This document shows, in pieces, positions 1,605 to 54,644 of a DNA stretch of 61,106 nucleotides. The stretch is from a virus (taxonomy: Duplodnaviria; Caudoviricetes). A program made the translations under genes and the position numbers. The notes under the pieces are model-generated. The model saw only the letters and a list, made by a program, of their open reading frames with translations, did no database searches and had not been told where the DNA came from. The stretch covers positions 1 through 61,106 of IMG/VR virus record IMGVR_UViG_3300027969_000110; one strand, given 5' to 3'. How positions within the stretch are numbered: the stretch's first letter is position 1; every line of letters starts with the position of its first letter.

Positions 1605-2171
1605 ATGCCACTGAAGAAGGGTTCCTCACAGAAGACAATCAGCGCCAATGTCAGCGAATTGGTGCATAGCGGACGTCCACAGAAGCAGGCTGTGGCGATA
1701 GCTTTGGACACGGCTCGAAAGGTATCACGCGCCAAGAGGGCGGCTGGTGGGCAGGCTCCCATGGGGGATTCTCCGCAGCCTCAGTCGCATGTTGGGCCAA
1801 TCCATAGCCCCGTGGCAGGCAGGACCGATCATCTGCCAATGCACGTTCCTTCTGGCTCGTATGTGATTCCGGCTGACATTGTGTCTTCTATGGGTGAAGG
1901 CAACACTATGGCAGGGTTCAGGGTCTTGGACGCTGCGTTAAGGGAGTTTGGCAATTCCCCGCAGGCACGGGCTCGCGGTGGCAGGGGGGGTGAAAATCAG
2001 GTGCCGATTGTTGCCGCTGGCGGGGAATATGTTATTCCTCCAGAAGTTGTCACGGCTATTGGGGATGGGGACATAAATTTGGGGCATACGGAGCTAGATT
2101 CCTTTGTGACAACAATGAGGAAGAAGCTCATAGACACCCTGAAAAAGCTCCCCGGACCCAAAAAGAATTGA
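1605..2171 (+). CDS. Putative internal virion protein with xxxGG motifs and duplicated G(S/E)YVIP module
   Basis: RBS GAGGA; basic N-terminus MPLKKGSSQKTIS; RAAGG and RARGG; two half-repeats VPSGSYVIPADIV and AAGGEYVIPPEVV. Confidence 0.6.
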   Translation: MPLKKGSSQKTISANVSELVHSGRPQKQAVAIALDTARKVSRAKRAAGGQAPMGDSPQPQSHVGPIHSPVAGRTDHLPMHVPSGSYVIPADIVSSMGEGNTMAGFRVLDAALREFGNSPQARARGGRGGENQVPIVAAGGEYVIPPEVVTAIGDGDINLGHTELDSFVTTMRKKLIDTLKKLPGPKKN

Positions 2172-2690: not shown

Positions 2691-5600
2691 ATGAGTGGCG
2701 TCTTCGTCTTTAGGCAGCCTCCGCAGGGGTTTCACACCGAGTATTTTGGCGGCGGCGGCGGCAAAGGCGGCACCACGGTTCAGTCCACACAGATTCCTCC
2801 AGAGGTCTTGGCGCGCTACAATGCTGTCAACGCGCGGGCTGAAGAGGTCGCTAAAACGCCGTTTCAGCGATATGGCGGCGAGTTTGTTGCCCCTATAAAT
2901 GCACAGCAAACGGCGGGTATTGGCGGCATAAATGCTGCCGCAAATCAAGCACAGCCGTATTATAGCAATGCAACAGAACAGTTGTATGGGGCTCAACAAA
3001 GCGCACAGCCATTTCTGAACCAAGCTACTGCCGCCACAACAGCCGGTGGTCAGGCAATTAATCCTCAAAATATAAATACTGAAGCATATATGAATCCGTT
3101 CACGAAAAATGTTGTGAATGCTACGCAAGCTGCCATGCAACAGCAGTTTGGGCAGCAACGCTCTCAACAACAAGCACAAATGGCAAAAACAGGTGCTTTC
3201 AATAATTCACGATCTGGGCTTGAGCGAGCCACATTGGCAGGCCAACAAAGTTTGGCAGAAGCACAAGTTATTTCACCTCTTTACCAGCGCAATTATGAGC
3301 AAGCTTTACAAACCGGTCTTGGTGTTGCACAGACGAATCGTACCGCTCAATCTCAGATGGGCCAGCAACTTGCCGCTCTTGGGCAGCAAAATTATGGCAT
3401 GGGCGCAGATGTTTCGTCGCGCTTGGCGGGTCTTGGAACTGCGGCACAAACAGCAGGTCTTCAGGGCGCGCAAGCGCGGATTGCGGCTGGCACTTTGCAG
3501 CAGCAGACGGCACAGGCCAAAAATGCGGCGCTCTATCAGCAACACTTGCAGGAACAGGGCTATCCCTTTCAGGTTGCTCAGTTTCTTGCCAACATTGCTA
3601 CTGGTACTGGCGCGTTGTCTGGCAACACGACGACGCAGGATAAGTCTGGCGGCTTCTTCTCCAATCGTGGCGGCTTTAAGGTCAATGAACGCCCGGCCCG
3701 TGCTTATGGTGGTGGGTTAGATGTCAACTCTATGGGCGGCGCTGTCTACGATCCCGGCGAATATGCTCGTGGCGGCTATTCTGAAGGCGGCGTCCCATCT
3801 ATGGATGACATTCTTGCTACGAATCAAGCGATGTTCATGGGGCAGGGCTCCCCCTATGGGCAGGGCCAGAAGCCCGGTGTTGGTCTTGGCATTCCAAGTC
3901 AGGCTGCCAAAATAACTCCTCTTCAGGTCAAGCCAATTGCCCAAGAGGCAAAAGGCCCAGATCCGCTGACGCAGGCTGCCAACTTTGGCGAAGGTCTTGT
4001 TAAGACGAAGAAAGCTGGTCAGGAGATCAAAAGCTGGTTTGACAAGAAGCCTGAAGATGGCAAAGGCCCGACTGCGCCTGCTGACGGGAAAAGCGGCGTT
4101 CTGGCCGATTCTAAGGGGAATATCAGCGTTAATGCGCCATCGGTCGGGCAGGCAGTTCCGATTGAACGCCCTGCCGGGTTAGCTGTCCCCAAGAATGTCT
4201 ATTCCGGCCCCAATATCCAAAAGACGGATTTGGGTGACGTTCCTGATATGGGTGGAAACCTCAACTTTGGCCCCGAAATCAAAGACCCCGGCAAAGGTTT
4301 GGCCTTTAACACAAGCAACTCAACGCCCGATCTTGGCAGATCAACTGCTGATTTTGGTGGCGTTCCCGATATGGGCGGCGATCAAGTTGCCAATCTTGGT
4401 GAAGACTTGGGCGGCGCTGACTTTGGCGATCTTGGCTCGTGGTTTGGCAATCGTGGCGGTGTAGCGGGCGGCAGGCGCAACGGCTATGCAGTAAAAGGTT
4501 TTGTCACCCCCGGCTATGATCCAGAGGTTCCCGGCACTGACATTATGGACACCACCGTTGATGAGGGCGAGCAATCCGTCAATCAACTCAAAGGTGAACA
4601 GGATGCCATGAACCCCAAAATCTCCGGTGGCGGAGGCGGGGGTGGTGGTCTTGGTCAGGCACTTGGGACCGCTATCAGCATTGGCAAGTTTTTCCTTAAG
4701 GATGGTGGCGCTGCCTATCGCGATGGCTATGCAGAGGGCGGCGAGTCTGGGGCGGTATCTGGTGGTCTCGATATAGATCGCCTCAACGCGCTGCTTTCTG
4801 CTGGTTCAAAGGCCGCAAATACAGCACCTATCCGCTATAGAACGGATGATGGAACAGAGTTTCGTGGGCAGACCATGCGTTCTGGCCCGTTTGCCGAATA
4901 CGGCGTTGGGCTTGGCACTAACTTGGGCGGCGGCAGGCTTGATGTCGATGCCGCTCGCGGGGCCACGCCTAATAGTCCTGCTCAGTACAGGGGTGGGATT
5001 AAGTGGTCCAAGAACTTTGCCGATGGTGGTCTTGCTTATCGCGAGCATCATGCCAAACCAGATGAGACCAACGATTACAGCAATGTTGTCGGTGAAAAGT
5101 TCAATCCAGAAGATGTAGCGGCGGCGGCGGAAGAGATCGCGCCAACGGGTGTTGATCCCCGACTGGTTGCTCTAGCACCTGACCGGCCCGTTCGCGAAAT
5201 GACGATGGACTCCTCCCTCATGTCCCGCGAGAGTGGTGGAGATTTCCGCGAGAAGAACGACGCTGTTGGGCATGGTGGCATGAAGGGCCACTTTGGCCGG
5301 GGCCAGTTTGGTCAGGCTCGCCTGCAAGATGCGATGAACGCTGGTGTATTGCCGAAAGGCACGACCCCGGAACAGTTCATGGATAGCGAAGAACTTCAGA
5401 AGGCGACTGAGAAGTGGCACTTTGGCGATATTTCTCAGCACATTGCCAATAAGGGCTTGGACAAAGCCATTGGAACGACAATCAATGGCATTCCTGTCAC
5501 GGAACAGGGAATGCTCAACGTCGCGCATCTTGGCGGTAAGGGCGGGCTGGAGAAGTTCATTACTTCTGGCGGCAAGTACGACCCGGCTGATGAGAACAAG

Positions 5601-7265
5601 ACCCGTCTTTCCGACTACTTGGCTATGGGTGCGGGCGTTAAGCCCCCGGCAAAAACGCAAACTGCCCCTCCCCAGTATGCTGGCAACGCACCCAAGAATG
5701 CCAGCATCGGTGATGTTGTCAGGGAATATGCTCCTTCTGGTATGCCAACGTCTGAGAACTTCTGGGTTCCGGCTTTGGGCTTCTTGGGCGGTATGCTGAC
5801 TTCTCCGAATAGGAGCTTGGCAGGCGCTATTGGTAGCGGGCTTGTCTCTGGCACGTCGGGCTATATGGAGCTTCGTAAGGGGCAGCAGGAAGACATCAAG
5901 AACGCTTTCAACGTCTTCAAAGATCGCTTTGAGGATGCTGTTGATCCCAAAACCAATCTTCCGGCTAAGAGGGATAAATATAGCGGCAATTACTACGCGC
6001 CAGAACAGATTCAAAATTCGCTTGCAAGACAGCTTCGCGCAATCGGTGCTGATCCTGCCGCTTATGGCGTGGTAGAGAGCAAAGTTTCTGCACCAGAAAA
6101 GACTGGCGCTAAGTCGGACACTTCTCTTCCCCCTCCTGTTAAGGGCGATAAGGTTGCTGACAAGAAGGTAGAAGAAGAAGCCAGCCCGATGGCACAGGCT
6201 GCGGCGGAGATATATCCAAAGCCCCCCAAAGACATGCCAAAGACAGACATGAATCCAGCGCAGCTTGATGCCAATGCTTTTTGGAATTGGAAAGAAGCTG
6301 GCGTTTCTCAAGACCCAATGCCAATTTGGCAAGAAATTCAAAGACTTAAGGCGCAACAAAAAACTTGGTCTGGCATGGGCGCGAGCAATGTTGGCAAAGT
6401 GACAGCACTTCAGGCGGATATTAAATCATATGAAGATAAGCTTAACTCTTTGCTGTCAAATGCTACAAAGCAGGACGTTGCCAGCAACTTGAAAATTAAA
6501 GAGGCTTTGGTCGAGCGGTCCAACAAACATGCCGATACAATCAGCCCCCGCATAGCCAAGTACCGGCAGGCCATGAACGATGTCGATACTCTTGCATTCC
6601 TTCAGTCGGAAGGATTGGCAAGTGGCGTCTCGTCTGAGTCTGTGAACAAGCTGAAGAGCATCTACCAGTACTGGACCGGCAAAGAACTGCCTATGGCTGG
6701 CAAAGACCCGGCTGGCGAGTTTGAGCTTGCGGTCAAGCTGGCGGCTTCGCGCGTTGCTGATTCCATTAAGGAGATTGGTGGACAACGTGCGCCCGGCGTT
6801 ACCTCTGCGCTTGAGGGCAAAATTGCACCAGACCCGTCTCGCTTGACCCCAACCGGGCTGCACTTGCTGCTTGGTAAAATCAAAGGTGACGCAACGTACA
6901 ATCTTGAAAGCGACACCGATTATCTTAACAACCATATGTACCGCACGGACCCTGCCAAGCACCCGCTTGTGTTTGACAATGCGGCAGACGACAAAGGCGC
7001 GAAGGGACAGGAAAAGTACAACAGGTATGTCGCTAAGGCATACAGCAGCTTGCCCGTCCCAACAAAAGACCCGACCATGCCAGAAGTTGCCAGCCATCTT
7101 CGCAAAAAATATGGCGAAGATTACACGCCGCTTACCAAAGGCTCTGGAAAAACGGAGGGGCAGCCAGAGGGAAGGTCTGTTGTTCGCAGCGGCACAGTCA
7201 ACTCTGGACCCAATGCTGGCAAGCGCATCATTGAATACTCTGATGGCACACGGGAGTATCAGTAA
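2691..7265 (+). CDS. Large DNA-ejection/internal virion protein with lysozyme-like (transglycosylase) domain
   Basis: 1524 aa; Gln/Ala-rich pilot-protein-like N-terminus (GGGGGKGGTT, AYMNPF); SRESGG...GRGQFG...AHLGG lysozyme-like motif; multiple xxxGG motifs. Confidence 0.7.
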   Translation: MSGVFVFRQPPQGFHTEYFGGGGGKGGTTVQSTQIPPEVLARYNAVNARAEEVAKTPFQRYGGEFVAPINAQQTAGIGGINAAANQAQPYYSNATEQLYGAQQSAQPFLNQATAATTAGGQAINPQNINTEAYMNPFTKNVVNATQAAMQQQFGQQRSQQQAQMAKTGAFNNSRSGLERATLAGQQSLAEAQVISPLYQRNYEQALQTGLGVAQTNRTAQSQMGQQLAALGQQNYGMGADVSSRLAGLGTAAQTAGLQGAQARIAAGTLQQQTAQAKNAALYQQHLQEQGYPFQVAQFLANIATGTGALSGNTTTQDKSGGFFSNRGGFKVNERPARAYGGGLDVNSMGGAVYDPGEYARGGYSEGGVPSMDDILATNQAMFMGQGSPYGQGQKPGVGLGIPSQAAKITPLQVKPIAQEAKGPDPLTQAANFGEGLVKTKKAGQEIKSWFDKKPEDGKGPTAPADGKSGVLADSKGNISVNAPSVGQAVPIERPAGLAVPKNVYSGPNIQKTDLGDVPDMGGNLNFGPEIKDPGKGLAFNTSNSTPDLGRSTADFGGVPDMGGDQVANLGEDLGGADFGDLGSWFGNRGGVAGGRRNGYAVKGFVTPGYDPEVPGTDIMDTTVDEGEQSVNQLKGEQDAMNPKISGGGGGGGGLGQALGTAISIGKFFLKDGGAAYRDGYAEGGESGAVSGGLDIDRLNALLSAGSKAANTAPIRYRTDDGTEFRGQTMRSGPFAEYGVGLGTNLGGGRLDVDAARGATPNSPAQYRGGIKWSKNFADGGLAYREHHAKPDETNDYSNVVGEKFNPEDVAAAAEEIAPTGVDPRLVALAPDRPVREMTMDSSLMSRESGGDFREKNDAVGHGGMKGHFGRGQFGQARLQDAMNAGVLPKGTTPEQFMDSEELQKATEKWHFGDISQHIANKGLDKAIGTTINGIPVTEQGMLNVAHLGGKGGLEKFITSGGKYDPADENKTRLSDYLAMGAGVKPPAKTQTAPPQYAGNAPKNASIGDVVREYAPSGMPTSENFWVPALGFLGGMLTSPNRSLAGAIGSGLVSGTSGYMELRKGQQEDIKNAFNVFKDRFEDAVDPKTNLPAKRDKYSGNYYAPEQIQNSLARQLRAIGADPAAYGVVESKVSAPEKTGAKSDTSLPPPVKGDKVADKKVEEEASPMAQAAAEIYPKPPKDMPKTDMNPAQLDANAFWNWKEAGVSQDPMPIWQEIQRLKAQQKTWSGMGASNVGKVTALQADIKSYEDKLNSLLSNATKQDVASNLKIKEALVERSNKHADTISPRIAKYRQAMNDVDTLAFLQSEGLASGVSSESVNKLKSIYQYWTGKELPMAGKDPAGEFELAVKLAASRVADSIKEIGGQRAPGVTSALEGKIAPDPSRLTPTGLHLLLGKIKGDATYNLESDTDYLNNHMYRTDPAKHPLVFDNAADDKGAKGQEKYNRYVAKAYSSLPVPTKDPTMPEVASHLRKKYGEDYTPLTKGSGKTEGQPEGRSVVRSGTVNSGPNAGKRIIEYSDGTREYQ

Positions 7266-9604
7266 TGGCCGATGAAAGCATCTCTTGGGATGAAGATGTT
7301 AAATGGGACGCACCCAAGCCCATAGCCATTGTCCCCGGCCAGCAGACCTATGCGGAAGACGAAGCTCTCATTGCCAAGAACCGTGGGGTCATTCCCGATG
7401 AAGTGAAGACCTTCGCAAAGAATGCCGGTAATACGGCACTCTTTTACGCGCCAAGAGCGGCTTCCGCAGTCTATTCGTCTTTTGCTGAAAACAAGCCACT
7501 CAGCCAAGCATGGGAGGAAGAAAAGGCTCTTGATGAAGCGCGCTCTCGCCAAAACCCCAAAGCTTCTATGGCGGGAACTGGTTTTGGCGCGGTTGCCGGT
7601 CTAGCTGTTCCTCTTGGCCCAATCGGCACTCTTGGCAAAGCGGCTGAAGCAGCTACTGCGGCTCGCTTTGGCGCAACTGCTGGCAAGATTGCTGAAGGTG
7701 CCACGGTTGGCAGTACTGCATCTGGTGTCAGCGGCTTGTTGGCAACTGCCGATCCGCGCGAAGCCCTGAAGGATGCTGCCATTGGTGCTGGCATTGGCGG
7801 CGCTGCCGCCCCTGTTATTGGCGCGTTGGGCAACTACTTCACGAAACTGCCTGCGGTTCAAGATGCCAGCGGCAAGCTGACTGCGGAAGCAGAACAGGCT
7901 ATCAACACTGCCTTTAAGGGCAAGATGACGGATGCAGACATTGCGTCCTTCAAGACAGAGCTTGTTGGCGCTTTTGAAAAGAAGGGCATATCCCCAGAGG
8001 TTGCCCGCGAAGCACTTCTGACCAAAGAAGGCATTACACCGACCGCAAGCTTGACAACGGGGAAAAAACCCCCGGAAGCCGCTGCTGATATTGGCGAGCA
8101 AGCTGCCAGAGAGGGCGCTGAGACGGTCGCCAAGAGAGCCGAAACATTGGCTGGGGCGCAACCCGCGCCGGGTGAAGTGGCGCGGCTTGTTCATGGCGCT
8201 GAAACGCAGGCGCATGATGTTGGCTCAAAAGCCTATGAAAAGCTTAATCAATATCCAGAGATATTCAAACCAGAAGCACAAGAATTGTTCCCAAAAGCAA
8301 TTCAAAAGCAGCTTTTTGGAACCGGGACAGGCGATTTCCCAACAACGCAACCAGACCTTCTCGCAAGCGGGCTGAACAAAGCTGCCCAAGCCTTTAAGCT
8401 TGTTGATGAAGGGATTGGTGCGGGTAACTTCCTGATCAAAGACCCGGCAACAGGTGTGGCTCAGTTCAACTTTGCAAACATGAACGCCGTCCGTAAGGCG
8501 CTCAATCAATTTGAGCGTGAAGCCAGTGGCGCTGATCGAACTGCCGTTCTCAGGATCAAGACTGGATTTGACACCGCATTGAACGATGCCGTTGCCAACA
8601 ATCTTTTCACGGGAAGTTCGCAGGCTCTGACAGACCTTCGTAAGGCCGATGCTCTTTGGAAGGATTATCGGTCTACCTTCTATGACAAATCAGGCCCGAG
8701 TGCTGGTACGTTCAAAAAGTCACTGAACGCTATGCTAGATTCCCAGATCAACAAGATGCCCACCAACCTCTCTGGAACTGCCGCAGAGACCGCGCAGGGC
8801 ATTCTTACGACTGGTCTACTGAATAAGGGCTACGGTTCCGAACTTTATGACCGTATGGCTCGCGCTCTAAAGCAAAATCCAAATGCTCTTGCTACTGTCA
8901 AAAACGAAATGCGAAATACCGTTCTCAAGAACCCAGCCGACACGAAGGAATTTACCAAATCCATCGACAACTTCTTGAAGGACCACAGCGGCCCCAATGG
9001 GCTTGCTAGTAAGATATTTGACCAACCCGGCGAACTTGCCGCCCTGCGTCGGATGTCTGAAGCTGCCAAAATCATTGAAGCCAAGCCTATCTCTCAGCAG
9101 GAAAAAACATCCATGCTGGTGAGGGCGCTTAAGCAGCTTACGAAAACTACCACAAGCGGGCTTATCGGATTTGCTCTTGGCAATGTGCCGGGCGCAGTTC
9201 AGGGTATCGCAGCGGGCAAAGCGGCTGAAGTGGTGGGCGCTCCTGTTGCCAACTTTCTGGCGCGTCGTGCCGAATCGGCTGGCGCACCTAAGACAGCCAT
9301 CAAAGCCCCTAAGCCTCTGCGGGTGTTTGACAAAGCCCCTGAGACCGGCTCGTTGGTCAGGAACGTAGAAGCTTTCGATCCTGTAGGCGTCTCTGGCTAT
9401 CAGGAGCCCACCATGCTCCCGCCTTTGACAATCAATAGGGACAGAACTGCCCGTGCATCTGGTGGCAGAATTTCTGACAAACTTGTGGTATCAGTTGAAC
9501 GTGCCAAGAAATTGGTGAACAATGCCACAAAGCCGCTTCTCAACGCCGATGACACCCACATTGCTCGCGCACTTGAGATCGCTAACCAGAATTTTGAGGG
9601 TTGA
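7265..9604 (+). CDS. Second DNA-ejection/internal virion protein
   Basis: 779 aa, Ala/Gly-rich hydrophobic segments, helical; coupled to upstream gene; C-terminal RASGG motif. Confidence 0.6.
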   Translation: MADESISWDEDVKWDAPKPIAIVPGQQTYAEDEALIAKNRGVIPDEVKTFAKNAGNTALFYAPRAASAVYSSFAENKPLSQAWEEEKALDEARSRQNPKASMAGTGFGAVAGLAVPLGPIGTLGKAAEAATAARFGATAGKIAEGATVGSTASGVSGLLATADPREALKDAAIGAGIGGAAAPVIGALGNYFTKLPAVQDASGKLTAEAEQAINTAFKGKMTDADIASFKTELVGAFEKKGISPEVAREALLTKEGITPTASLTTGKKPPEAAADIGEQAAREGAETVAKRAETLAGAQPAPGEVARLVHGAETQAHDVGSKAYEKLNQYPEIFKPEAQELFPKAIQKQLFGTGTGDFPTTQPDLLASGLNKAAQAFKLVDEGIGAGNFLIKDPATGVAQFNFANMNAVRKALNQFEREASGADRTAVLRIKTGFDTALNDAVANNLFTGSSQALTDLRKADALWKDYRSTFYDKSGPSAGTFKKSLNAMLDSQINKMPTNLSGTAAETAQGILTTGLLNKGYGSELYDRMARALKQNPNALATVKNEMRNTVLKNPADTKEFTKSIDNFLKDHSGPNGLASKIFDQPGELAALRRMSEAAKIIEAKPISQQEKTSMLVRALKQLTKTTTSGLIGFALGNVPGAVQGIAAGKAAEVVGAPVANFLARRAESAGAPKTAIKAPKPLRVFDKAPETGSLVRNVEAFDPVGVSGYQEPTMLPPLTINRDRTARASGGRISDKLVVSVERAKKLVNNATKPLLNADDTHIARALEIANQNFEG

Positions 9605-12331: not shown

Positions 12332-12383
12332 GTTTTTGTTCCTGTGATTGGTGGCGACTGACTGCCAATCGCCACCGTTGATT

Positions 12384-31590: not shown

Positions 31591-31782
31591 ATGACAAGCT
31601 ATATTCTTTTTAGCAAAGGGGGCCTTATGCTGCGATCACTACAGCCACTGGAACTTGATCCGCTTGACGAGCTTGAGCTTGAAGCTACGCTTGTTGGCAT
31701 GATCCGCAGAGCATATCCGCCCCAGCCTTTGGCGCGTCGTTCCAAAATCTTCAACATAATCAAACGGTTCTTACAGCTATGA
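31591..31782 (+). CDS. Hypothetical protein
   Basis: Short ORF coupled to terL; start uncertain. Confidence 0.35.
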   Translation: MTSYILFSKGGLMLRSLQPLELDPLDELELEATLVGMIRRAYPPQPLARRSKIFNIIKRFLQL

Positions 31783-33759: not shown

Positions 33760-36075
33760 ATGCCTATGGTTCCCGGTCTTGGTTTGAATGTGCGCCAACC
33801 AGCCCCTGAACAGGAGCCGCTGAGTGTCGATGATGTCATGGTTGAGATCATTGAAGGCAATGATAACAACAAGATAGACGAAAAAGGGAACATTCTGGAG
33901 ATTGAACACCCAGACGGGTCGCTGACAATCTCTTTGGATGGCAAGCCCATTGGCGATAATGCCAAAGAGCGCGACGAAACCGATTGGTTTCGCAATCTTG
34001 TAGAAGATGTAGCCGAAAGCAATCTTGGCAGCATCGCTGAAGAACTGCTTCGTGGCATTCGCGACGATCTTGAGAGCCGGAAAGACTGGATTGAAGACCG
34101 CGCACAGGGCATCAAGCTTCTTGGACTGAAGGTTGAGATACCCGGCTTGCAGGGTTCCGGCGATGGAGCCCCCATTGAGGGCATGTCAAAAGTCCGACAC
34201 CCCCTTTTGCTGGAAGCCGTGCTGCGTTTTCAGGCCAATGCCCGGTCTGAACTGCTTCCCACCGATGGCCCGGTCAAAGTTCGCAACGACAACAACAACG
34301 CCACGCTGCAAAATGACCAGCTTGCCAATGCTCTTGAGAATGATCTCAATCATTATCTGACCGCCACAGCCACCGAGTATTATCCTGACACGGATCGTAT
34401 GCTTCTGATGCTTGGCTTTGGTGGCACGAGCTTCAAGAAGGTCTATTTTTGTCCGTTACGAAATCGTCCCGTGTCAGAAACTGTCGATGCGGACGATTTG
34501 ATTGTCAATAATGCTGCCACAGACCTGTCAAATGCCAAGCGGATCACGCACCGCAGCTATATGAGCCCCAATACCGTTAAGCGCCTTCAGATTTTGGGCG
34601 TTTACCGCGATGTTAGCTTGTCTACGCCTAAAGCTGCCGATCCTGACAGCTTCCAGCGCGAAAAGAACGCCCAGCAGGGCATTTCCATGGACAGCTACAA
34701 CCCGGACGACCGCGACAGGCTCATTTACGAAGTCTATTGCGATCTGGACCTGACCGGCTTTGAGCATAAGCACAAAGGCAAGCAGTCTGGTCTGGAAATT
34801 CCGTACATTGTGACCATTGACGAGTCTTCCAGACAGATTTTGTCAATTGTTCGCAACTACGATGAGGACGATCAGGAGCTTCCGTCCTCCAAGAAGCGGT
34901 TCGTGAAGTACACGTTTGTGCCGGGGCTGGGTTTCTATGACATTGGACTGCTCCACATTCTTGGCAACACGACAAATGCCATTACAGCAGCTTGGAGAGA
35001 GCTTCTGGACGCTGGCATGTACAACAACTTCCCCGGCTTCCTCATGGCAGACACCGGAGCCCGGCAGAACACCAACATTTTCCGCATTCCTCCCGGTGGC
35101 GGCGCGCTGGTAAAGACCAATGGTATGCCGATCTCTCAAGCGATCATGCCGTTGCCTTACAAAGAACCTTCTGGCGCGTTGATGAACTTGGTCACGCAGA
35201 TGGCTGAGACTGGTATGCGTGTTGGTGGCACATCTGAGGTGATGGTCACGGAAGGCAAGCCCGACGCGCCAGTGGGAACCACTCTGGCGATGATCGAGCA
35301 GTCCCAGAAGGTGCTGAACTCCGTTCACAAGCGCCTTCATTCCGCCCAGTCAGAGGAATTTGAGCTTTTGGTACAGTGCTTTAGGGAAAATCCCGAAAGC
35401 TTCTGGCAAAAGCGCCGCAAGCCTGCCTATCCGTGGGACGAGAAGACATTCTTGGACGCGCTAGACAGCTACTTCTTTGTCCCGCAGGCTGACCCCAATA
35501 CCGCCAGCCAATCGCAGAGGCTTATGAAAGTCTTGGCGTTGAAGCAATTGGTTTCTTCCAACCCCACACTGTATGACCCAATTGCGGTCGATACGGCTGC
35601 GCTTCAGGCTCTTGGCTGGTCGAACCCGTCTCAGTTTATGGTGCCTGCGTCCGCGCAGGGCAAGCCGCCGCCAGAATTGCTGAAGATGATGGCTGAAGCT
35701 GAGAACGAGAAGACAATTGCTCAGGCTCGTATGATGGACAGCCAGACCCGCGCCAACGAATCACAAGCCAAACTTGAGCTTGAACGGATGAAACTTGGCA
35801 TGGATCAGAACTTCCAAGATCCCGCCAAAATGGCTGAGTTGCAGCTTCGTCAGGAAGAACTTCAGCAAAAACAACAAGATGCGATGATTGACGCCATCAA
35901 CCGGAAGCGTGACAGGGAAAGCCGTGAGCGCCTGTCTGCGGTCAAGTTGGCAGAGGAACTGATCCGTAACCCGCAGGGTATGGGGGTTGTTGGGAATGTT
36001 CTCGATCAGGGTATGATCGACCGTCTTGAGACCAACGAGCCGACGCTGGACGGCACACAAACCGGAGAACTCTGA
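33760..36075 (+). CDS. Portal protein (P22-like, long C-terminal coiled coil)
   Basis: HPLLLEAVLRFQANARSELLP..GPVK, GTSFKKVY, GFYDIGL, PLPYKEPS, APVGTTLA; follows terL. Confidence 0.9.
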   Translation: MPMVPGLGLNVRQPAPEQEPLSVDDVMVEIIEGNDNNKIDEKGNILEIEHPDGSLTISLDGKPIGDNAKERDETDWFRNLVEDVAESNLGSIAEELLRGIRDDLESRKDWIEDRAQGIKLLGLKVEIPGLQGSGDGAPIEGMSKVRHPLLLEAVLRFQANARSELLPTDGPVKVRNDNNNATLQNDQLANALENDLNHYLTATATEYYPDTDRMLLMLGFGGTSFKKVYFCPLRNRPVSETVDADDLIVNNAATDLSNAKRITHRSYMSPNTVKRLQILGVYRDVSLSTPKAADPDSFQREKNAQQGISMDSYNPDDRDRLIYEVYCDLDLTGFEHKHKGKQSGLEIPYIVTIDESSRQILSIVRNYDEDDQELPSSKKRFVKYTFVPGLGFYDIGLLHILGNTTNAITAAWRELLDAGMYNNFPGFLMADTGARQNTNIFRIPPGGGALVKTNGMPISQAIMPLPYKEPSGALMNLVTQMAETGMRVGGTSEVMVTEGKPDAPVGTTLAMIEQSQKVLNSVHKRLHSAQSEEFELLVQCFRENPESFWQKRRKPAYPWDEKTFLDALDSYFFVPQADPNTASQSQRLMKVLALKQLVSSNPTLYDPIAVDTAALQALGWSNPSQFMVPASAQGKPPPELLKMMAEAENEKTIAQARMMDSQTRANESQAKLELERMKLGMDQNFQDPAKMAELQLRQEELQQKQQDAMIDAINRKRDRESRERLSAVKLAEELIRNPQGMGVVGNVLDQGMIDRLETNEPTLDGTQTGEL

Positions 36076-38024
36076 TGGCTGGTGCGCGCGAATTTCCTGA
36101 AGACAAATTTTCCCCGTCTTCGCTTCGCCGCATAGGCGACCCTGCTGCTGGCATGTTTGACATGACATCGCCGAGCGGCGTTCCGCTTGGTCAGGCGGCA
36201 ATGTTTATTGGTGCGCACGGTATGCAACGCGCCATGGACTTTGTTAAGCGGGTTGAGCGCGGTGAAATTGACCCCAGTTCAGATGAAGGTCTTCGCCAGA
36301 CGCTTGATTTAGCACTGCTAACGCTTGGCCGTCCGGGCGGCGTGTCTCGTCCGGGTACTGGCCTCCCGCGCGGGATAGAAGGTGAGATTTTGGCAGCGGA
36401 GCCGCGCGCAACGCCGCAGCTTGGCGTTAGGGAGCCCACCGTATTAGATCAGCGTGCCATGCCGTCTTCGCCTATGGGTCGCGGAACCAGCGGGGATGCA
36501 ATCCGTGGCACAAGCGCAGAAGGTGCGCCGCGATTGACGCGCGTAGACCCGTTGACACGCTATAGTCTTGTTGGTGAGCAGGGTCAGCGCATTGGGCCTA
36601 ACCGCCCACCAGAGGCTTTGCGTCCTGAAGTTGATGCAATGTATTCCCCAACTGGCCGCAATGAATTTTTGCCCAACGTGACAACGCAAAGCCGGTTGGC
36701 TCGTCTTGGCGATGAAAGCCCATTGCAGGCTGACCGGGCTGGGGTGGCACGGCAATCTGCTCAAGATGCTGAAGCTGCTTTTAGGGCGCGTCAGGCTGCC
36801 ATTGCAGAAGAAGAGGGTTTTGGCAGGCCTATGACACAATCCGAAAAGGATTTTGCTCAATTTCAACGCGAGTTGTCTTTGGCTGACAGGGGGGCAAATG
36901 TTCCTTTTGAGCCACCGGCTTCTGCGGGCGCTCCCCGGTCTCCGTTTCTTGACATGCCTGTTCCCGGCGTAAGAGCCCGACCGCCTGCTCCTGCACCAGA
37001 GCCGCTTCAGCTTGGCTCTAGCGGCTCTGCCTCTGGCACGTTGGTTGACCCGCTGACCGGTCACGCATATCAACCGCGCCAGTTTGGCCCGTTGTCGCAG
37101 TCTGGTTCTGGCTCGTTTAGCCCCATGACACGCGCAGAAGCATCTTTTCCTTCGCGCCCTCCAGCGGCCCCTATGGACCCAATTGCTGCCGCGCAAAAGG
37201 CCGCTATTGATGCCACTGCTAAACGGGTTGCTCTTGAGCGTGAGGGTGCTGGCGCAACGCAACTTAGGCAAGCTGTTATTGATGAAGCCGCTGCGCGAGT
37301 TGCTGCCGAGAGGGTTGCTGCTGACCAGACCTCCATGCTTCCATCTAGCTACAGGCCCGGCTGGAGTGGCAACATGGCGACCATGGGCGGCATTGGTGCT
37401 GGCACTGCGGCATTAATTACTGGCAGCCAAGAAGCTCAACGTAGGACTGAGCCTGTTGACCGGATGCCAGAGGGCTACAGACCCCAAAGTGCTGAAGACT
37501 TTCAACGGATGCTTTTTGGCGAGCCTCCCGTAAAACGTCAGATACCCGCTGCCGATGCCGATAGTATCACGGCGGGCTATGATGCGATCCCGGCGCAGCG
37601 TAGGCAAATACCGGCTGCCGATGCTGACAGCATTACGGCTGGCTATGACATGCCTGCTCAACGTGCCAAAACGACCGCTGCTTCAGTTTTGGGCGGCTCC
37701 CGCGCTGGCGCGTCTGCCCCCGCACAAGCTGCACCCGCAGAGTCCCGTGGGTTTCTGTCAAACCTGATCAGTTCTGCTGGCAAACTCTATGACCCCGACT
37801 ACCAGAAAGGCATGACTTCCCAGCAATTATTTGCAGAGTCCAACAAGAACCCAGACGACCCGGCTGCATTCTTCCGTGCTGACAAGCGTTGGAAGGAAGA
37901 GAACCCGAACTACGGGCAACCTCAAACTGAGAAGCGTGGCGGTGCTGTTGAACAGAAGCCCAGCAAAGAAGCTATGCTTCACAAGTCTCTTGAGATAATC
38001 CACCACATGATCAGGAACCGGTAA
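36075..38024 (+). CDS. Putative internal virion protein, low complexity
   Basis: 649 aa Pro/Ala-rich; RQIPAADADSITAGYD repeated twice; C-terminal EKRGG. Confidence 0.55.
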   Translation: MAGAREFPEDKFSPSSLRRIGDPAAGMFDMTSPSGVPLGQAAMFIGAHGMQRAMDFVKRVERGEIDPSSDEGLRQTLDLALLTLGRPGGVSRPGTGLPRGIEGEILAAEPRATPQLGVREPTVLDQRAMPSSPMGRGTSGDAIRGTSAEGAPRLTRVDPLTRYSLVGEQGQRIGPNRPPEALRPEVDAMYSPTGRNEFLPNVTTQSRLARLGDESPLQADRAGVARQSAQDAEAAFRARQAAIAEEEGFGRPMTQSEKDFAQFQRELSLADRGANVPFEPPASAGAPRSPFLDMPVPGVRARPPAPAPEPLQLGSSGSASGTLVDPLTGHAYQPRQFGPLSQSGSGSFSPMTRAEASFPSRPPAAPMDPIAAAQKAAIDATAKRVALEREGAGATQLRQAVIDEAAARVAAERVAADQTSMLPSSYRPGWSGNMATMGGIGAGTAALITGSQEAQRRTEPVDRMPEGYRPQSAEDFQRMLFGEPPVKRQIPAADADSITAGYDAIPAQRRQIPAADADSITAGYDMPAQRAKTTAASVLGGSRAGASAPAQAAPAESRGFLSNLISSAGKLYDPDYQKGMTSQQLFAESNKNPDDPAAFFRADKRWKEENPNYGQPQTEKRGGAVEQKPSKEAMLHKSLEIIHHMIRNR

Positions 38025-38033
38025 GAGGTTGCC

Positions 38034-39335
38034 ATGACCAAGCGCCGTATCGCCAACGCCCTGCACATTGCCAAAACTATGCGCCGGGCAAATTATGATA
38101 GAGGCGGCCTTACGCCTGCGTCATTGGCGAAGGCATGGACGCCCCCCGAAGAAGCTATTGAGAAAAACGTAGGGCCGCGCGCTAGAGAGTTTATGGAAAA
38201 TTATCCTGAGAAACTGTATCAGGGGATCGCAAATGTGCCACAGGCAATCACAGAAATGCCGGGCAAAGCTTATGAATTTATGAAATATCCCGGACAACTT
38301 TTGTATGGCGAAAAAACATTCAATCCTGATGAAGCCGCAGATTGGTCTAACACTCTTGGCAGCAACTTGCTTGGTATGTCTGCGCCTTCAGTGGTTAAAA
38401 TGCCAACGGATGGCGCATCTACCGCCCGCATTTTTGCTGGGCTCAATGCAGACACTGCTAATTTAGGGGCTTATCGCGCTGCGGAGGCGGCAAAAAAAGC
38501 TGGTATTGCTGAAGATGCAATATGGAAACAGCACGGTTGGGGTTGGACTAAAGATGGTAAACCATTTTTTGAAATATCTGACGAAAAAGCCGCTCTAACG
38601 CCTAAAACTCAAAAGTATTTTGAACACGGCGAACCTATGGAGGGGCATCTTAGAGACCACTTGCATCATCCAGAGTTTTTTGCTGCGTACCCAGAAGCTG
38701 CCCGTATGAGAGTAACAATTGACCCCAAAACTCCTATGCTTGGACAACCAAATGGTTGGTATCGGGAAGACCCTATATATGGCTTTATGAGAAATTCAGA
38801 ACTAGAAGTTCGGCAACCTACGCCTGAAAAAGCACTTAGCGTTCTTATGCACGAAGTTAATCATGGTGTTCAGGGATATGAAAATTTCCCCCGTGGCTCT
38901 AGTCCATCAACAATTAAACAAGATATTCTTGCAGATATTCAAAAGAGAATGGATGATGTTTTGGCGCAACGTGCACAATACGAAGAGGCTATCGCAAACG
39001 CGCCAGACTCTGCAACAAGAATAAAAATGAGGGAAAAGATAAATGAGCTAACGGAAACCTATAAAGACATTAGCCAATACAAAAACACAGCAGATATAGA
39101 CATGCAATCATACCGCGAATACTTCAAAACGCATGGCGAAGCCGATTCAAGAAATGTTCAAAATAGATTGGACATGAAAGCAGATGAACGCAGGCAAGTG
39201 TTGCCACGGCATACAATGGATGTGCCATGGGAAGATTTGATTGTCAGGTATCCACGAGCGCGCGGAGGCTCTATTGTAAATCGTGCGCTTATGGTAATGT
39301 CATCAAAGGCCAAGCGCCAACGGGGACGCCCGTAA
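38034..39335 (+). CDS. LPD23-like zincin metallopeptidase internal protein
   Basis: GW....DGK.FFEISD, HPEFFAAYP, HEVNHGVQ (HExxH), GEADSRNVQNR; flanked by YDRGG and RARGG. Confidence 0.7.
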   Translation: MTKRRIANALHIAKTMRRANYDRGGLTPASLAKAWTPPEEAIEKNVGPRAREFMENYPEKLYQGIANVPQAITEMPGKAYEFMKYPGQLLYGEKTFNPDEAADWSNTLGSNLLGMSAPSVVKMPTDGASTARIFAGLNADTANLGAYRAAEAAKKAGIAEDAIWKQHGWGWTKDGKPFFEISDEKAALTPKTQKYFEHGEPMEGHLRDHLHHPEFFAAYPEAARMRVTIDPKTPMLGQPNGWYREDPIYGFMRNSELEVRQPTPEKALSVLMHEVNHGVQGYENFPRGSSPSTIKQDILADIQKRMDDVLAQRAQYEEAIANAPDSATRIKMREKINELTETYKDISQYKNTADIDMQSYREYFKTHGEADSRNVQNRLDMKADERRQVLPRHTMDVPWEDLIVRYPRARGGSIVNRALMVMSSKAKRQRGRP

Positions 39336-39353
39336 TCCTAATTAGGAGCTATC

Positions 39354-40973
39354 ATGTCTGACATGGCAAAAGAGGCCCGCGCGGCCATGAAGGCGAAGGC
39401 CAAGAGCCTTACGACCGCCGACCCGCACCAGAAGGTTGATTCGTCTACTTGGACGCCGCCCGAGCCGCTGAACACGGAAGCCAAGACTGGCCTCCGTCCT
39501 CTCAGCCGCCGCGCGTTCAAGTTTGGCGGTAAGGTTCAGGGTCAGGCTGCCAAGTTCAACATGGGTAAGGCTGTTCGCACCGGCAACAAGCCGATGACCT
39601 CTGACTCCATGGCAAATAAGGACATGAAGTCGGCTAATCAGGAGCGGGCTGGCGTCAAGCACATTGGCGCGTTGAAGTCTGGTGGACGAGCCAAGAAGAT
39701 GATGGGCGGCCCTATGATGGGCGGCGACATGGACGGTGGCATGAACTCTGCTATGGCCCCCAGCGGTGGCCGTGGCACCGGCACCATGCCGCAGGGCGTT
39801 GACCCCAATGACAGCCGTTTTGGCATGGTCCCCGGCACTGCCAACGTCCCTTACAAGAAGGGTGGCAAAGTTCACGACGATGTAAAGCAGGATAAGGCGC
39901 TCATCAAGAAGATGGTGAAACCTGCGGCTCGCACCGGCAAAGATGAAGGTGGTCTTACCTTAGGATCGCCTAAAGCTGAAAGCCGGTATTCTGAAGCTAC
40001 TCGTAACGCCCGCGCACAGCGTCAGGCGCAGGATCTTTCTGATAAAGCATCTAACGCAAACTATGCTACTGCTGGTCTTCGTGGCGCTGAATGGGCAAAT
40101 AAGCAAAGTCTTGCGGACACGGCTAACAAAGAAGCTGGTGCTGCAAGAAGCCAAGCTGACACGATTTCTGAGCAGACTGGGTATCCCAATACGCAGTATA
40201 AAAAAGGTGGCCGCACCAAGCGGGCTACTGGCGGTCAGGCTATGGGAATGGATGACGGGAGCCGTCAAAGTCGCATGGGTTCTGATGATCGGGCTGCGGC
40301 TCAGGCGGCGGCTGCAAATATGGGCGCAAGAGATGCCAGTCTTGCTGACCAGCAAAATGCAATGGGTGGAATGAAAAAGGGTGGCCGTACCGGTCGCGCT
40401 ACTGGCGGTCAGGTCTTCTCTGGTCCCGGCTATCCCGGTAAGGTTCCCGGCGTTGTTCCGGGTGGGCGCGATGCTCACGCGCGCGGGGGTAAGACCCGTG
40501 GCAAAGGCCAGACCAAAATCAACATTATGATTGGAGCGGCCCAGCCCGGCATGGGTGGCGCTAATCCTATGGGTGGCCCGACCCCGCCTCCGGGCATGGG
40601 TGGCGATCAGCCTCCGGGCGGTATGCCGATCCCGATGCCTGCCCCGGCTGCTGGCGCTCCCGCACCGGCTCCGATGCCAATGCCAATCCCGATGCCCGGC
40701 CCGGCTGGTCCTGCTGGTCCTCCCGGTATGCCTATGGCGCGTAAGTCTGGTGGCCGTACCTACAAGTCTTACAAAGACATGGACGCTGGCGCTGGCTCCG
40801 GTGAAGGCCGTCTGGAAAAGACGGAAATCGCTGAACACAAGCGCGGCGAGCGTAAGGCTGGTGGGCGCACTTACCGTTCTTATAAGGACATGGATGCTGG
40901 TTCTGGGTCTGGGCTTGGCCGGTTGGAGAAGACTGAGATTGCCGCGCACAAGAGCGGCATTCAGAAAGCTTGA
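39354..40973 (+). CDS. Basic GG-motif-rich internal virion protein
   Basis: About 12 xxxGG motifs, a Pro/Met-rich stretch and two ~38-aa C-terminal repeats RKxGGRTY.SYKDMDAG.GSG.GRLEKTEIA.HK. Confidence 0.65.
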   Translation: MSDMAKEARAAMKAKAKSLTTADPHQKVDSSTWTPPEPLNTEAKTGLRPLSRRAFKFGGKVQGQAAKFNMGKAVRTGNKPMTSDSMANKDMKSANQERAGVKHIGALKSGGRAKKMMGGPMMGGDMDGGMNSAMAPSGGRGTGTMPQGVDPNDSRFGMVPGTANVPYKKGGKVHDDVKQDKALIKKMVKPAARTGKDEGGLTLGSPKAESRYSEATRNARAQRQAQDLSDKASNANYATAGLRGAEWANKQSLADTANKEAGAARSQADTISEQTGYPNTQYKKGGRTKRATGGQAMGMDDGSRQSRMGSDDRAAAQAAAANMGARDASLADQQNAMGGMKKGGRTGRATGGQVFSGPGYPGKVPGVVPGGRDAHARGGKTRGKGQTKINIMIGAAQPGMGGANPMGGPTPPPGMGGDQPPGGMPIPMPAPAAGAPAPAPMPMPIPMPGPAGPAGPPGMPMARKSGGRTYKSYKDMDAGAGSGEGRLEKTEIAEHKRGERKAGGRTYRSYKDMDAGSGSGLGRLEKTEIAAHKSGIQKA

Positions 40974-41079: not shown

Positions 41080-41307
41080 ATGGCAGCTACAACATACCAG
41101 ATGTACTATCAGTACGAGCTAAAGAAGGCTCTTGAGGAAAATATAGAGCGACTTAAAGAAGCTCTCGTAACCTCTTATCAAATCGAAGGTTTTGACTTTT
41201 CGGCCTACCGTCACCAAGTAGGTAGGATCGAAGGACTTCGCATGGCTGTGGAGCTTTGCGATGAGGCAGATGCCATTGTGAATGGCAAAGAGCGTGAAGG
41301 GGGTTAG
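41080..41307 (+). CDS. Conserved small head-region protein
   Basis: DFSAYRHQVGRIEGL; precedes GroES-like gene. Confidence 0.6.
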   Translation: MAATTYQMYYQYELKKALEENIERLKEALVTSYQIEGFDFSAYRHQVGRIEGLRMAVELCDEADAIVNGKEREGG

Positions 41308-41308
41308 A

Positions 41309-41701
41309 ATGCCTTTTATGACCATGGAACACGAGAATGATCCGGCAGAACTCTTGCGGAAGCAGGCCGGTGACATTTCATCAGTTGAAGTGTTCAACAA
41401 TCAGCTTTTGGTGGCAGTGTATGTACGCCCCCAGAAGACCAAGAGTGGTCTGTATTTGACCGACAAGACGACTGAAGAAGACAAGTATCAGTCCAAAGTT
41501 GGTCTGGTCCTGAAGATGGGCGCGTCTGCTTTCCATGACACGACTGGCGAGTGGTTTAGCGATGTTGAGATTAATGAGGGTGATTGGATTGTCTTTCGCC
41601 CCTCTGAAGGTTGGAGCATCACTGTCAACGGCCAACTGTGCCGGATGATTGATGACATCAACGTAAAGGGTCGGGTCGATCAACCTGACCGTGTATGGTA
41701 A
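41309..41701 (+). CDS. groES: GroES-like co-chaperonin
   Basis: KTKSGLYL, VGLVLKMG..AF, GDWIVF, CRMIDD. Confidence 0.8.
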   Translation: MPFMTMEHENDPAELLRKQAGDISSVEVFNNQLLVAVYVRPQKTKSGLYLTDKTTEEDKYQSKVGLVLKMGASAFHDTTGEWFSDVEINEGDWIVFRPSEGWSITVNGQLCRMIDDINVKGRVDQPDRVW

Positions 41702-44954: not shown

Positions 44955-45043
44955 TTTGGTTGGGTTTTTCGTCCTTAGAACGCTACAATTGACAAAAATT
45001 AATCTTCCGGTGTATGGTTCAAAACCAACATCGGGAGATTAAA

Positions 45044-46240: not shown

Positions 46241-46540
46241 ATGAAAGGTCGCATTGCTCGTAAGGATGGCGGTCCTGCTAAGGGCGTCAACGAAATGGCT
46301 CAGGATTCTTCTAAGAAGAACATGCGCTATACCTATCAGTCCAACGTCAACGATGAAGCTGAAGAGCGGAAGCGTGGCGGTAAAGCTGTCGGTAAGGTTA
46401 AGGGCGAAAAGGGTAAGGCTGACATGGGTCGCGCCCCCCGCAAGTCTGGTGGCCGCACTGGTTCGAACATGAACCCGCTGTCGTCTGCCGCGAAGGGGAC
46501 GAATGCCCCCGGTCGTGACACTTCTGGCAGCCTGTCGTAA
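46241..46540 (+). CDS. Small basic GG-motif protein
   Basis: RKDGG, RKRGG, RKSGG; AGGAGG RBS. Confidence 0.65.
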   Translation: MKGRIARKDGGPAKGVNEMAQDSSKKNMRYTYQSNVNDEAEERKRGGKAVGKVKGEKGKADMGRAPRKSGGRTGSNMNPLSSAAKGTNAPGRDTSGSLS

Positions 46541-54616: not shown

Positions 54617-54644
54617 TCTTCATCATGGCAAAGAGGGGGGTCTC

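What the first reader, a model, noticed from the sequence alone, without database searches (positions are those of the whole stretch)
36075..40973. Shared x-x-x-G-G motif across seven internal virion proteins: candidate processing or packaging code
Seen: a motif roughly [RYFKLMH]-[AKSD]-x-G-G recurs about 28 times. 1605: RAAGG, RARGG. 2691: SNRGG, RAYGG, YARGG, YSEGG, GNRGG, LKDGG, YAEGG, FADGG. 7265: RASGG. 36075: EKRGG. 38034: YDRGG, RARGG. 39354: FKFGG, LKSGG, YKKGG x2, KDEGG, RATGG x2, MKKGG, HARGG, RKSGG, RKAGG. 46241: RKDGG, RKRGG, RKSGG. These otherwise unrelated proteins place the motif at domain boundaries or just before short terminal peptides. It is not evident in this pattern in the capsid, portal or replication proteins. 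Known: di-glycine motifs are cleavage signals for adenovirus protease ((M/I/L)xGG) and ubiquitin-like proteases, and T4 uses short capsid-targeting sequences. No HK97-type prohead protease is recognisable here. Inference: a GG-directed system tags proteins for encapsidation and/or cuts polyproteins into peptides delivered with the DNA.
Basis: partly seen in the sequence, partly recalled or inferred. Interest (0 to 1): 0.8.

Follow-up and report, generated by a model that had tools for sequence, protein, structure and literature searches.

The report
Gly-Gly junction tag on phage cargo
A short peptide ending in two glycines really does mark the ends and module joints of the proteins this uncultured phage probably carries inside its head. 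It belongs to longer conserved address tags on swappable cargo, and whether it is cut or only docks is still open.

Summary
All 28 listed peptides exist. It replicates in three related genomes when the protein sets are defined by gene order. The GG pairs are invariant columns in three large metagenomic families.

The motif is not free-standing. It is the junction element of conserved terminal modules (an amphipathic helix plus [bulky/basic]-[A/K]-x-G-G) attached to otherwise unrelated protein bodies. It also occurs about 11 times in a conserved, predicted-disordered, strongly basic protein encoded just upstream of the GroES-like and scaffold genes.

This supports a loading or address code for internal and ejected proteins. 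A cutting role is neither shown nor excluded. No conserved protease was found, and the only zincin-like motif (in 38034) is absent from most relatives. No cultured relative or proteomic data exist.

Verdict: a real, lineage-wide and apparently undescribed signal of a known general kind (capsid-targeting or processing tags). The mechanism is unresolved.

The parts
36075..38024 (+). First gene after the portal (649 aa). The body is variable and the C-terminal module is conserved (nt 37842-38021): ..AAFFRADK.. EKRGG (nt 37929-37943), a 10-aa linker, then the helix LHKSLEIIHHMI.
   Evidence: A tag HMM built from relatives only hits aa 614-649 at E 3.7e-19. Alignment A6. 372 cluster representatives carry the module at their C-end.
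38034..39335 (+). Cargo-type protein (433 aa). It has an N-tag helix plus YDRGG (nt 38034-38108), a WTPPE module, LPD23 (aa 133-188), the zincin-like LMHEVNHGVQGYENF (HEVNH at nt 38850-38864), and a C-tag RARGG-SIVNRALMVMSSKAKRQRGRP (nt 39246-39332).
   Evidence: Pfam PF18838 scores 35.7 bits against a cutoff of 27. The C-tag HMM hits at E 4.8e-12 and the N-tag HMM at E 0.054. Alignment A2.
39354..40973 (+). Conserved Gly-rich basic protein (539 aa, 16% Gly, net charge +38) with 11 motif copies. Its C-terminal module RK(S/A)GGRTY.SYKDMDAG.GSG.GRLEKTEIA is repeated twice.
   Evidence: At least 2288 homologues, none with a Pfam family. The GG pairs are invariant in A1. The AF2 mean pLDDT is 50.4, with 352 of 539 residues below 50. 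Charge.
46241..46540 (+). Small basic protein (99 aa) with RKDGG, RKRGG and RKSGG.
   Evidence: The same three sites are present in the G001 homologue.
1605..2171 (+). 188-aa protein in the position of T7 gp14. It has a two-helix N-module, then KRAAGG (nt 1737-1751), a variable linker, core repeat 1, ARARGG (nt 1968-1982) and core repeat 2.
   Evidence: A7 has 34 sequences, with A46 G48 G49 and A123 G125 G126 invariant. In the AF2 model the helix of aa 26-46 ends at the GG, and aa 46-75 and 119-138 are disordered.
2691..7265 (+). 1524-aa protein with an ejection-protein-like N-part and a lysin domain (the position of T7 gp16). RAYGG, YARGG, YSEGG, LKDGG, YAEGG and FADGG lie in its Gly-rich linkers.
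   Evidence: phrog_4287 and phrog_26675. RAYGG and the following Y/F-A-x-GG are conserved in G001 and G004.
7265..9604 (+). 779-aa protein in the position of T7 gp15. Its conserved C-terminal module (nt 9440-9601) reads RASGG-RISDKLV..ERAKK..LLN.DD.HIARALEIAN.
   Evidence: The motif lies 45 to 55 aa from the C-end in 6 of 6 homologues. In G001 and G004 only aa ~717-779 stay 51-53% identical.

Best explanation
The x-x-x-G-G peptide is the junction element of short modular address tags.

Each tag is an amphipathic helix of the type A-L-x-I-A-K or H-K-A-L-E-I-I-H-H. It is joined to the protein body through [bulky or basic]-[A/K]-x-G-G, often with a variable linker. Tags sit at the N-end, at the C-end, or between modules of the proteins that this podovirus-like phage is inferred to hold inside the head and eject. 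These are the gp14/15/16-like core proteins, the variable cargo genes after the portal, a 99-aa basic protein, and a disordered basic protein that carries about 11 copies.

The tags let unrelated and frequently exchanged bodies (a zincin with LPD23, ParB-like and SLT-like domains, and unknowns) be loaded by one shared mechanism. T4 and P1 do the same with capsid-targeting sequences.

My committed reading is that the GG element is an uncut helix stop and docking site. It would be read in one direction by a still unknown partner, either a head-interior protein or the multi-copy Gly-rich protein acting as a hub.

Shown: the enrichment, positional conservation, modularity, predicted disorder and helix-end placement of the motif. 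Inferred: that the proteins are in the virion, that the tags have a loading function, and that they are not cut.
For: The enrichment is real and replicates.

Constant tags on variable bodies. The first post-portal ORF carries the ..GG..HKALEIIHH C-end in 34 of 44 distinct relatives. A profile of that 60-aa module finds 372 cluster representatives. In 149 of the 150 best it is the extreme C-end of proteins of 55 to 1445 aa, and all 149 have GG 10 to 37 aa before the helix, in the context G-[MKER]-[KA]-[RSA]-G-G-[AST]-[VA]. N-tags (13 examples) and RGRP-ended C-tags (10 examples) sit on different bodies.

The C-module of 7265 is the only part conserved in the G001 and G004 homologues.

The GG pairs are invariant in A1, A6 and A7 and lie next to linkers of variable length.

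AF2 places the GG at the end of a confident helix in 1605, and all the motifs of 39354 in coil.

No protease gene was found, and the head module is of the portal-scaffold-capsid type without one.

Precedents for conserved targeting tags on diverse internal proteins are T4 (PMC3012670, passages read) and P1 DarB, whose N-terminal 30 residues suffice (PMC9024508, abstract and passages read).
Against: The conserved residues always lie on the N-terminal side of the GG, whether the helix is upstream or downstream. A plain helix cap would be mirrored, so this polarity fits a protease subsite pattern at least as well.

In the 36075-type module the motif is conserved while the linker to the helix is not. 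A mere hinge would not need that.

No partner was identified.

Virion location is inferred only.

Caulobacter phage RW shares the head module but shows no enrichment (14 vs 11.4), so the signal is not required by that module as such.
Confidence: 0.45

Rival explanations
1. The motif is a maturation cleavage site, cut after GG. Tags would be removed after loading, and the Gly-rich protein would be diced into short basic peptides that stay with the DNA. This would resemble T4 gp21 acting at L/I-x-E, or adenovirus protease acting on its core precursors. The enzyme would be an unrecognised phage protein, the cargo zincin where present, or a host protease.
For: The polarity is fixed whatever the tag orientation. 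The sites lie between constant tags and variable bodies and next to variable linkers.

There are many sites in one disordered basic protein.

38034 carries LHExxHxxQxxEGF, conserved in 8 of 12 rows of A2. Iyer et al. 2017 propose that such zincins process polyvalent virion proteins (PMC5512222, section 8 read).

Lambda gpH is cut in its glycine-rich C-terminal region by an unknown enzyme at an unknown site (PMC12617516, passages read). That region holds FATGG and YATGG.
Against: No peptidase family was found in any window protein.

HExxH occurs in only 1 of 23 distinct middle ORFs of relatives.

43442 has no His and 42631 has no Cys. Profiles of both found nothing significant in the PDB (no hit, and one at E 0.22).

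The 1605 model has no Foldseek match at E <= 0.001.

Positions +1 and +2 after the GG are also constrained.

T7-type heads without a protease do not process their core proteins (recalled, not from a call).
Confidence: 0.32
2. The motif is a sticker in basic disordered regions that bind the packaged DNA or co-condense with it. The multi-copy Gly-rich protein would be the scaffold, and proteins with one or two copies would be clients.
For: 39354 has net charge +38 and 46241 has +12. Disorder is predicted. Basic residues flank many copies. AT-hook-like RGRP ends occur on the C-tag of 38034 and near the N-end of the conserved 42631 family.
Against: Many copies are acidic or neutral (YADGG, YAEGG, FADGG, YSEGG). 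2691 and 36075 have no net positive charge. Exact positional invariance and single copies at module joints are more than a compositional grammar needs.
Confidence: 0.15
3. There is no function of its own. The motif would be a by-product of shared descent and shuffling of a few Gly-rich linker modules among these genes.
For: The internal repeats in 39354 inflate the count (two RK.GGRTY.SYKDMD modules and two KKGGR..RATGGQ units). Modules such as WTPPE and ADFFRADKA are also shared.
Against: The GG and position -2 are invariant across families at 30-60% identity while the adjacent linkers vary freely. The motif occurs in seven proteins that share no other similarity.
Confidence: 0.06

Closest known systems
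T4 capsid targeting sequence (CTS) of internal proteins, removed by prohead protease gp21
   Same: A short conserved terminal tag on a diverse, fast-changing set of head-internal proteins, with a short shared motif at the tag-body joint (PMC3012670, passages read; the gp21 site L/I-x-E is recalled).
   Different: No prohead protease gene is present. Tags occur at the C-end and internally as well as at the N-end. The sequence is different, the head type is podovirus-like, and cutting is not shown.
P1 DarB N-terminal packaging signal
   Same: About 30 terminal residues suffice to send a large ejected protein, or a reporter, into the head (PMC9024508, abstract and passages read).
   Different: That signal is on a single protein, and no shared GG motif is described in the passages read.
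Polyvalent proteins with zincin-like metallopeptidase (Iyer et al. 2017)
   Same: 38034 has LPD23 and an HExxH..E motif. The cargo bodies are modular, and processing into units has been proposed (PMC5512222, section 8 read).
   Different: That paper's text has no occurrence of 'glycine' or 'GG motif'. The zincin is missing from most relatives that keep the motif.
Adenovirus protease sites (M/I/L)-X-G-G|X in core precursors
   Same: A GG-ending motif shared by internal core proteins, including basic DNA-associated ones (recalled, not from a call).
   Different: Here the residue two before the GG is A or K and the bulky residue lies one position further out. No clan CE protease was found.
Lambda tape measure gpH, glycine-rich C-terminal region (gpH* and gpHC)
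   Same: An ejected protein is cut in a Gly-rich region that holds FATGG and YATGG, with enzyme and site unknown. The segment that follows resembles core repeat 2 of 1605.
   Different: The similarity is weak (hhalign probability 20%). gpH is a tail protein rather than a head protein, and the cut site is not mapped to the motif.
crAss-like phage cargo proteins
   Same: Large ejected cargo is stored in the head, and cargo protein C1 is bound at the portal (PMC10172136, passages read). Earlier notes of this scan report the same kind of GG junction motif there.
   Different: There is no sequence relation to this phage. The Atlas likeness to crAss cargo protein 1 is only 0.76. The paper's text has no word beginning 'cleav' or 'proteoly'.

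Membership tests
T4-type CTS plus prohead-protease processing | Conserved short terminal tag on otherwise unrelated internal proteins | tested here: met
T4-type CTS plus prohead-protease processing | Prohead protease gene in the head module | tested here: not met
   No peptidase family in PHROGs, Pfam or NCBIfam. The A3 and A4 profiles have no significant PDB match.
T4-type CTS plus prohead-protease processing | Tag removed by cleavage in mature virions | not testable with these tools
   No cultured relative exists. tblastn of 39354 and of the C-tag against 50,697 phage records found only the metagenomic MW202675.
Adenain-type GG sites | M/I/L two residues before the GG (P4) | tested here: not met
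   Position -2 is K or A in 142 of 149 sequences. The bulky residue is at -3.
Adenain-type GG sites | Clan CE cysteine protease encoded | tested here: not met
   No such Pfam or PHROG hit.
Double-glycine leader with C39 peptidase | N-terminal amphipathic leader ending in GG about 15 to 30 residues from the start | tested here: met
   The N-tags end at GG at residues 19 to 29 in 13 examples, and at aa 25 in 38034.
Double-glycine leader with C39 peptidase | C39 peptidase or exporter partner | tested here: not met
   None in the window.
Polyvalent protein with zincin-like peptidase | LPD domain plus HExxH and a downstream Glu | tested here: met
   PF18838 scores above its cutoff. LHExxHxxQxxEGF is present in 8 of 12 rows of A2. 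The fold was not modelled.
Polyvalent protein with zincin-like peptidase | Peptidase present wherever the GG motif is present (needed if it reads the motif) | tested here: not met
   HExxH occurs in 1 of 23 distinct middle ORFs.
AT-hook | R-G-R-P core flanked by basic residues | tested here: met
   38034 ends in KAKRQRGRP and 42631 begins ..RRRGRPPRP, with RRGRPP in the A3 consensus. DNA binding cannot be tested here.
Lambda gpH C-terminal region | Detectable homology of the GG-plus-GE(Y/F)V segment | tested here: inconclusive
   hhalign probability 20%, E 0.0011, 57 columns. Pfam finds nothing in either segment.

The most novel reading that the evidence does not exclude
A widespread and undescribed sorting grammar of tailed phages. 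A directional [bulky]-[A/K]-x-G-G signal next to a short address helix would specify which proteins are loaded into the head and ejected, and it would be cut by a so far unknown, possibly host-supplied, Gly-Gly endopeptidase. The same signal would explain the unmapped cut of lambda gpH and the junction motifs noted in crAss-like cargo. It would also give a portable tag for loading foreign proteins into phage heads.
Probability: 0.15. Interest if true: 0.9.

Novelty: new variant of a known kind. Interest (0 to 1): 0.66.

Why it matters
How podovirus-like phages choose which proteins go inside the head and into the host is largely unknown outside T4 and P1. This lineage is large: at least 593 portal relatives, at least 2288 homologues of the Gly-rich protein and 3477 of 1605. 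Its cargo genes are swapped often while the tags stay constant. The tags are therefore a direct handle on the loading rule, on discovering injected anti-defence or takeover proteins by their tag alone, and on engineering protein delivery. If the sites are cut, an unknown protease activity awaits discovery.

Tried and rejected
Complex prediction of the portal (A5) with the C-terminal 60 aa of 36075 (A6) returned 'no answer' with scores 0.00 and 0.00. This is not evidence either way.

Search for a hidden protease. The AF2 model of 1605 (pLDDT 69) gave no Foldseek PDB match at E <= 0.001. The 42631 profile had no PDB hit and the 43442 profile only one, at E 0.22.

A C-terminal GG on the 75-aa protein at 41080 suggested a ubiquitin-like end, but it is not conserved in relatives.

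A DNA-level cause was rejected because only the Gly codons are shared.

GroES mobile-loop and ribosomal L27 N-terminus look-alikes were considered from memory and dropped. The residues after the GG are not hydrophobic, and there was no test for either idea.

The acetyltransferase label on the MW202675 homologue of 2197 could not be confirmed (no Pfam, NCBIfam or PDB hit). A lysine-acetylation reading was therefore not pursued.

T7 and SP6 core proteins do not carry the motif (0, 0, 1 and 0, 0, 0), so they give no test of cut versus uncut.

A pattern search with 38034 and 7265 in viral contigs found no usable loci.

Literature searches for a described GG signal in phage virions found nothing (searches gave zero papers; one search gave only unrelated papers).
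Full report
**What the window is.** The window is a whole 61,106-bp virus record, rated complete by CheckV.

Gene content:
- large terminase at 31779-33500
- portal at 33760-36075
- three genes after the portal: 36075, 38034 and 39354
- a 75-aa gene
- a GroES-like gene at 41282
- a scaffold-like acidic coiled-coil protein at 41714
- 42631 and 43442
- major capsid protein at 44040
- collagen-like tail fibres
- an SU10-type adaptor at 58761

After these comes a block in the order of T7 genes 13 to 17: 1085, 1605, 2197, 2691 (with ejection-protein and lysin matches), 7265 and the fibre 9608.

The nearest GenBank record is the metagenomic MW202675 (portal 66.6% identical). More distant relatives are HTVC023P/027P-type pelagiphages, Roseobacter CRP-901/902 and Caulobacter RW. 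No peptidase family was found in any protein.

**The observation.**
- Whole-protein shuffles expect 5.0 +/- 2.2, and 0 of 1000 reach 25.
- The other 75 proteins have 4 against 7.1.
- Local-block shuffles give 5.2 to 5.6.
- Given a GG, the upstream context is present in 24 of 63 cases in the seven proteins against 3 of 85 elsewhere (p = 9e-8).

Because the seven proteins were picked for the motif, I repeated the test in three related genomes with sets fixed by gene order. The counts were 22 vs 4.7, 20 vs 5.2 and 19 vs 4.4 (0 of 500 shuffles each), with no excess in the rest of each genome. MW202675 shows the same pattern (30 vs 13.5 overall, concentrated in the syntenic genes). HTVC027P shows little (13 vs 8.5) and Caulobacter RW none (14 vs 11.4). 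T7 and SP6 core proteins lack the motif. The signal is therefore real, at peptide level and specific to this lineage.

**What it is part of.** A portal search returned 593 relatives, of which 80 loci were kept. Three regularities emerged.

1. *The Gly-rich protein.* The gene just upstream of the GroES-like gene is nearly always a Gly-rich protein of 290 to 945 aa with 7 to 21 motif copies. This is the family of 39354. It has at least 2288 homologues, none with a Pfam family or a name. In a 27-sequence alignment the GG pairs and several flanking K/R residues are invariant. So are a helix HEDVAEDKALIKKMVKP and a twice-repeated C-terminal module. AF2 predicts mostly disorder (mean pLDDT 50.4), with every motif in coil.

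2. *The first gene after the portal.* It has a variable body but a constant C-end..ADFFRADKA.., then G-[MKER]-[KA]-[RSA]-G-G-[AST]-[VA], a linker of variable length, then LHKALEIIHHLL. This C-end is present in 34 of 44 distinct proteins. A profile of these 60 residues found 372 cluster representatives among 1.84 billion proteins. In 149 of the 150 best the match is the very C-end of proteins of 55 to 1445 aa. All 149 have the GG 10 to 37 residues before the helix.

3. *The middle genes.* They differ in body (LPD23 with zincin, ParB-like, SLT, unknown) but share two tags. One is an N-tag: M..(A)L+(L/I)A+..YADGG. The other is a C-tag: [KR]-x-GG-(S/T)(I/V)V(D/N)(R/K)AL(M/V)L.SKKA..RGRP. HMMs built from relatives alone recover the window's own tags, 36075 at E 3.7e-19 and the 38034 C-tag at E 4.8e-12.

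The core-like proteins follow the same rule.
- All six 7265 homologues carry the motif 45 to 55 residues before the C-end. It is followed by ..LV..ERAKK.. and H(I/V)A(R/K)ALE(I/V)AN. In two genomes only this end is still recognisably conserved.
- In the 1605 family (3477 homologues) two A-x-GG sites are invariant, and each adjoins a variable linker.
- AF2 puts the first site exactly at the end of a confident helix.
- The first 47 residues of 1605 are a module that forms the N-terminus of prohead protease-scaffold proteins in BcepB1A and Acinetobacter phages, and it stands alone as SP6 gp51. That fits a head-interior role.

**Mechanism.** Constant short tags on exchangeable bodies are the hallmark of a loading signal. 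T4 internal proteins and P1 DarB are the examples (PMC3012670 and PMC9024508, passages read). What the GG element itself does is less clear.

For an uncut junction or docking element:
- the placement at helix ends
- the conserved helices
- the absence of any protease gene in a portal-scaffold-capsid head module
- constraints on both sides of the GG

For a cleavage site:
- The conserved residues are always N-terminal of the GG, whether the helix lies before or after it.
- In the 36075 module the motif is conserved while the linker to the helix is free.
- The multi-site basic disordered protein looks like a precursor.
- Lambda gpH is cut in a Gly-rich stretch holding FATGG and YATGG by an unknown enzyme at an unknown site. 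The similarity of that stretch to 1605 is weak (hhalign probability 20%).

The zincin-like motif of 38034 cannot be the general reader, because it occurs in only 1 of 23 distinct middle ORFs.

A DNA-binding or sticker role fits the basic copies and the AT-hook-like RGRP ends. It does not fit the acidic copies (YADGG, YAEGG).

I put uncut address junction at 0.45, cleavage at 0.32, sticker or DNA binding at 0.15 and no function at 0.06.

**What is known.** I found no description of this signal. Iyer et al. 2017 has no occurrence of 'glycine' or 'GG motif'. Two targeted full-text searches returned no papers. The library lacks most subscription journals, and I did not open any supplements. Earlier notes of this scan report the same kind of junction motif in crAss-like and other phages, also with no enzyme found. 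These are unchecked leads and not independent support. The phiCrAss001 structure paper has no word beginning 'cleav' or 'proteoly' and shows cargo C1 bound at the portal.

**Limits.**
- Virion location is inferred from synteny and from depositor labels.
- No cultured relative exists.
- My gene calls are greedy ORF calls.
- Tag counts rest on regular expressions that miss variants.
- G001 to G004 overlap the loci used to train the tag HMMs, so only the window hits are independent.

Noticed in passing
window 38034-39335 (aa 425-433) and 42631-43254 (aa 8-16): AT-hook-like R-G-R-P cores: KAKRQRGRP at the C-end of 38034 and RRRGRPPRP near the N-end of 42631. RRGRPP is in the consensus of 19 homologues of 42631, a conserved head-module protein of unknown function.
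   Followed up: partly
window 39354-40973 (aa 31-37) and 38034-39335 (aa 35-41): A further shared short module, (S/A)-W-T-P-P-E, in the Gly-rich protein and in the 38034 family. It is also present in SLT-bearing relatives (A2).
   Followed up: partly
window 1605-1745: The first 47 aa (phrog_2423) recur as the N-terminus of prohead protease-scaffold proteins of Burkholderia phage BcepB1A and Acinetobacter Obolenskvirus phages, and as the stand-alone SP6 gp51. tblastn found 229 phage records with a match.
   Followed up: partly
window 1605-2171 (aa 80-115 and 136-181): Two internal repeats (..SGSYVIPADIV.. and ..GGEYVIPPEVV..) with many invariant His, Asp and Ser residues. No structural match was found. 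There is a weak likeness to the lambda gpH C-terminal segment IVHRGEFVF.
   Followed up: partly
window 11756-12463 (-): A GcrA cell-cycle-regulator-like gene (Pfam E 2.7e-18), which hints at an alphaproteobacterial host.
   Followed up: no
window 45014-45754: An HNH plus endonuclease VII gene inserted directly after the capsid gene. It is likely a homing endonuclease.
   Followed up: no
window 41282-41701: The GroES-like (Cpn10) gene next to the scaffold and capsid genes is conserved from this lineage to HTVC027P and Caulobacter RW.
   Followed up: no
window 59709-61106 and 3-1142: The two end ORFs align to aa 1-440 and aa 393-758 of one 758-aa protein of MW202675 ('phage stabilization protein'). 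One gene therefore appears to be split by the ends of the record. The overlap and frame were not resolved.
   Followed up: partly
window 48062-48796: Pfam E1_FCCH (ubiquitin-activating enzyme beta-barrel domain) hits aa 166-226 of a tail-region protein at 36.6 bits. It is probably only a structural barrel.
   Followed up: no
window 54597-56972: A 791-aa protein combining methyltransferase, two glycosyltransferase regions and TPR repeats, inside the tail-gene region.
   Followed up: no
L023 / G002 (between about 14377 and 15982 of L023): This relative shows no called Gly-rich ORF upstream of its GroES-like gene, although the other tags are present. The gap was not examined.
   Followed up: no
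window 1737-1751 and 40851-40865: Two A-G-G codon runs spell GCTGGTGG, the E. coli Chi octamer. That is only 2 of 25 motif sites, so it is probably chance.
   Followed up: no
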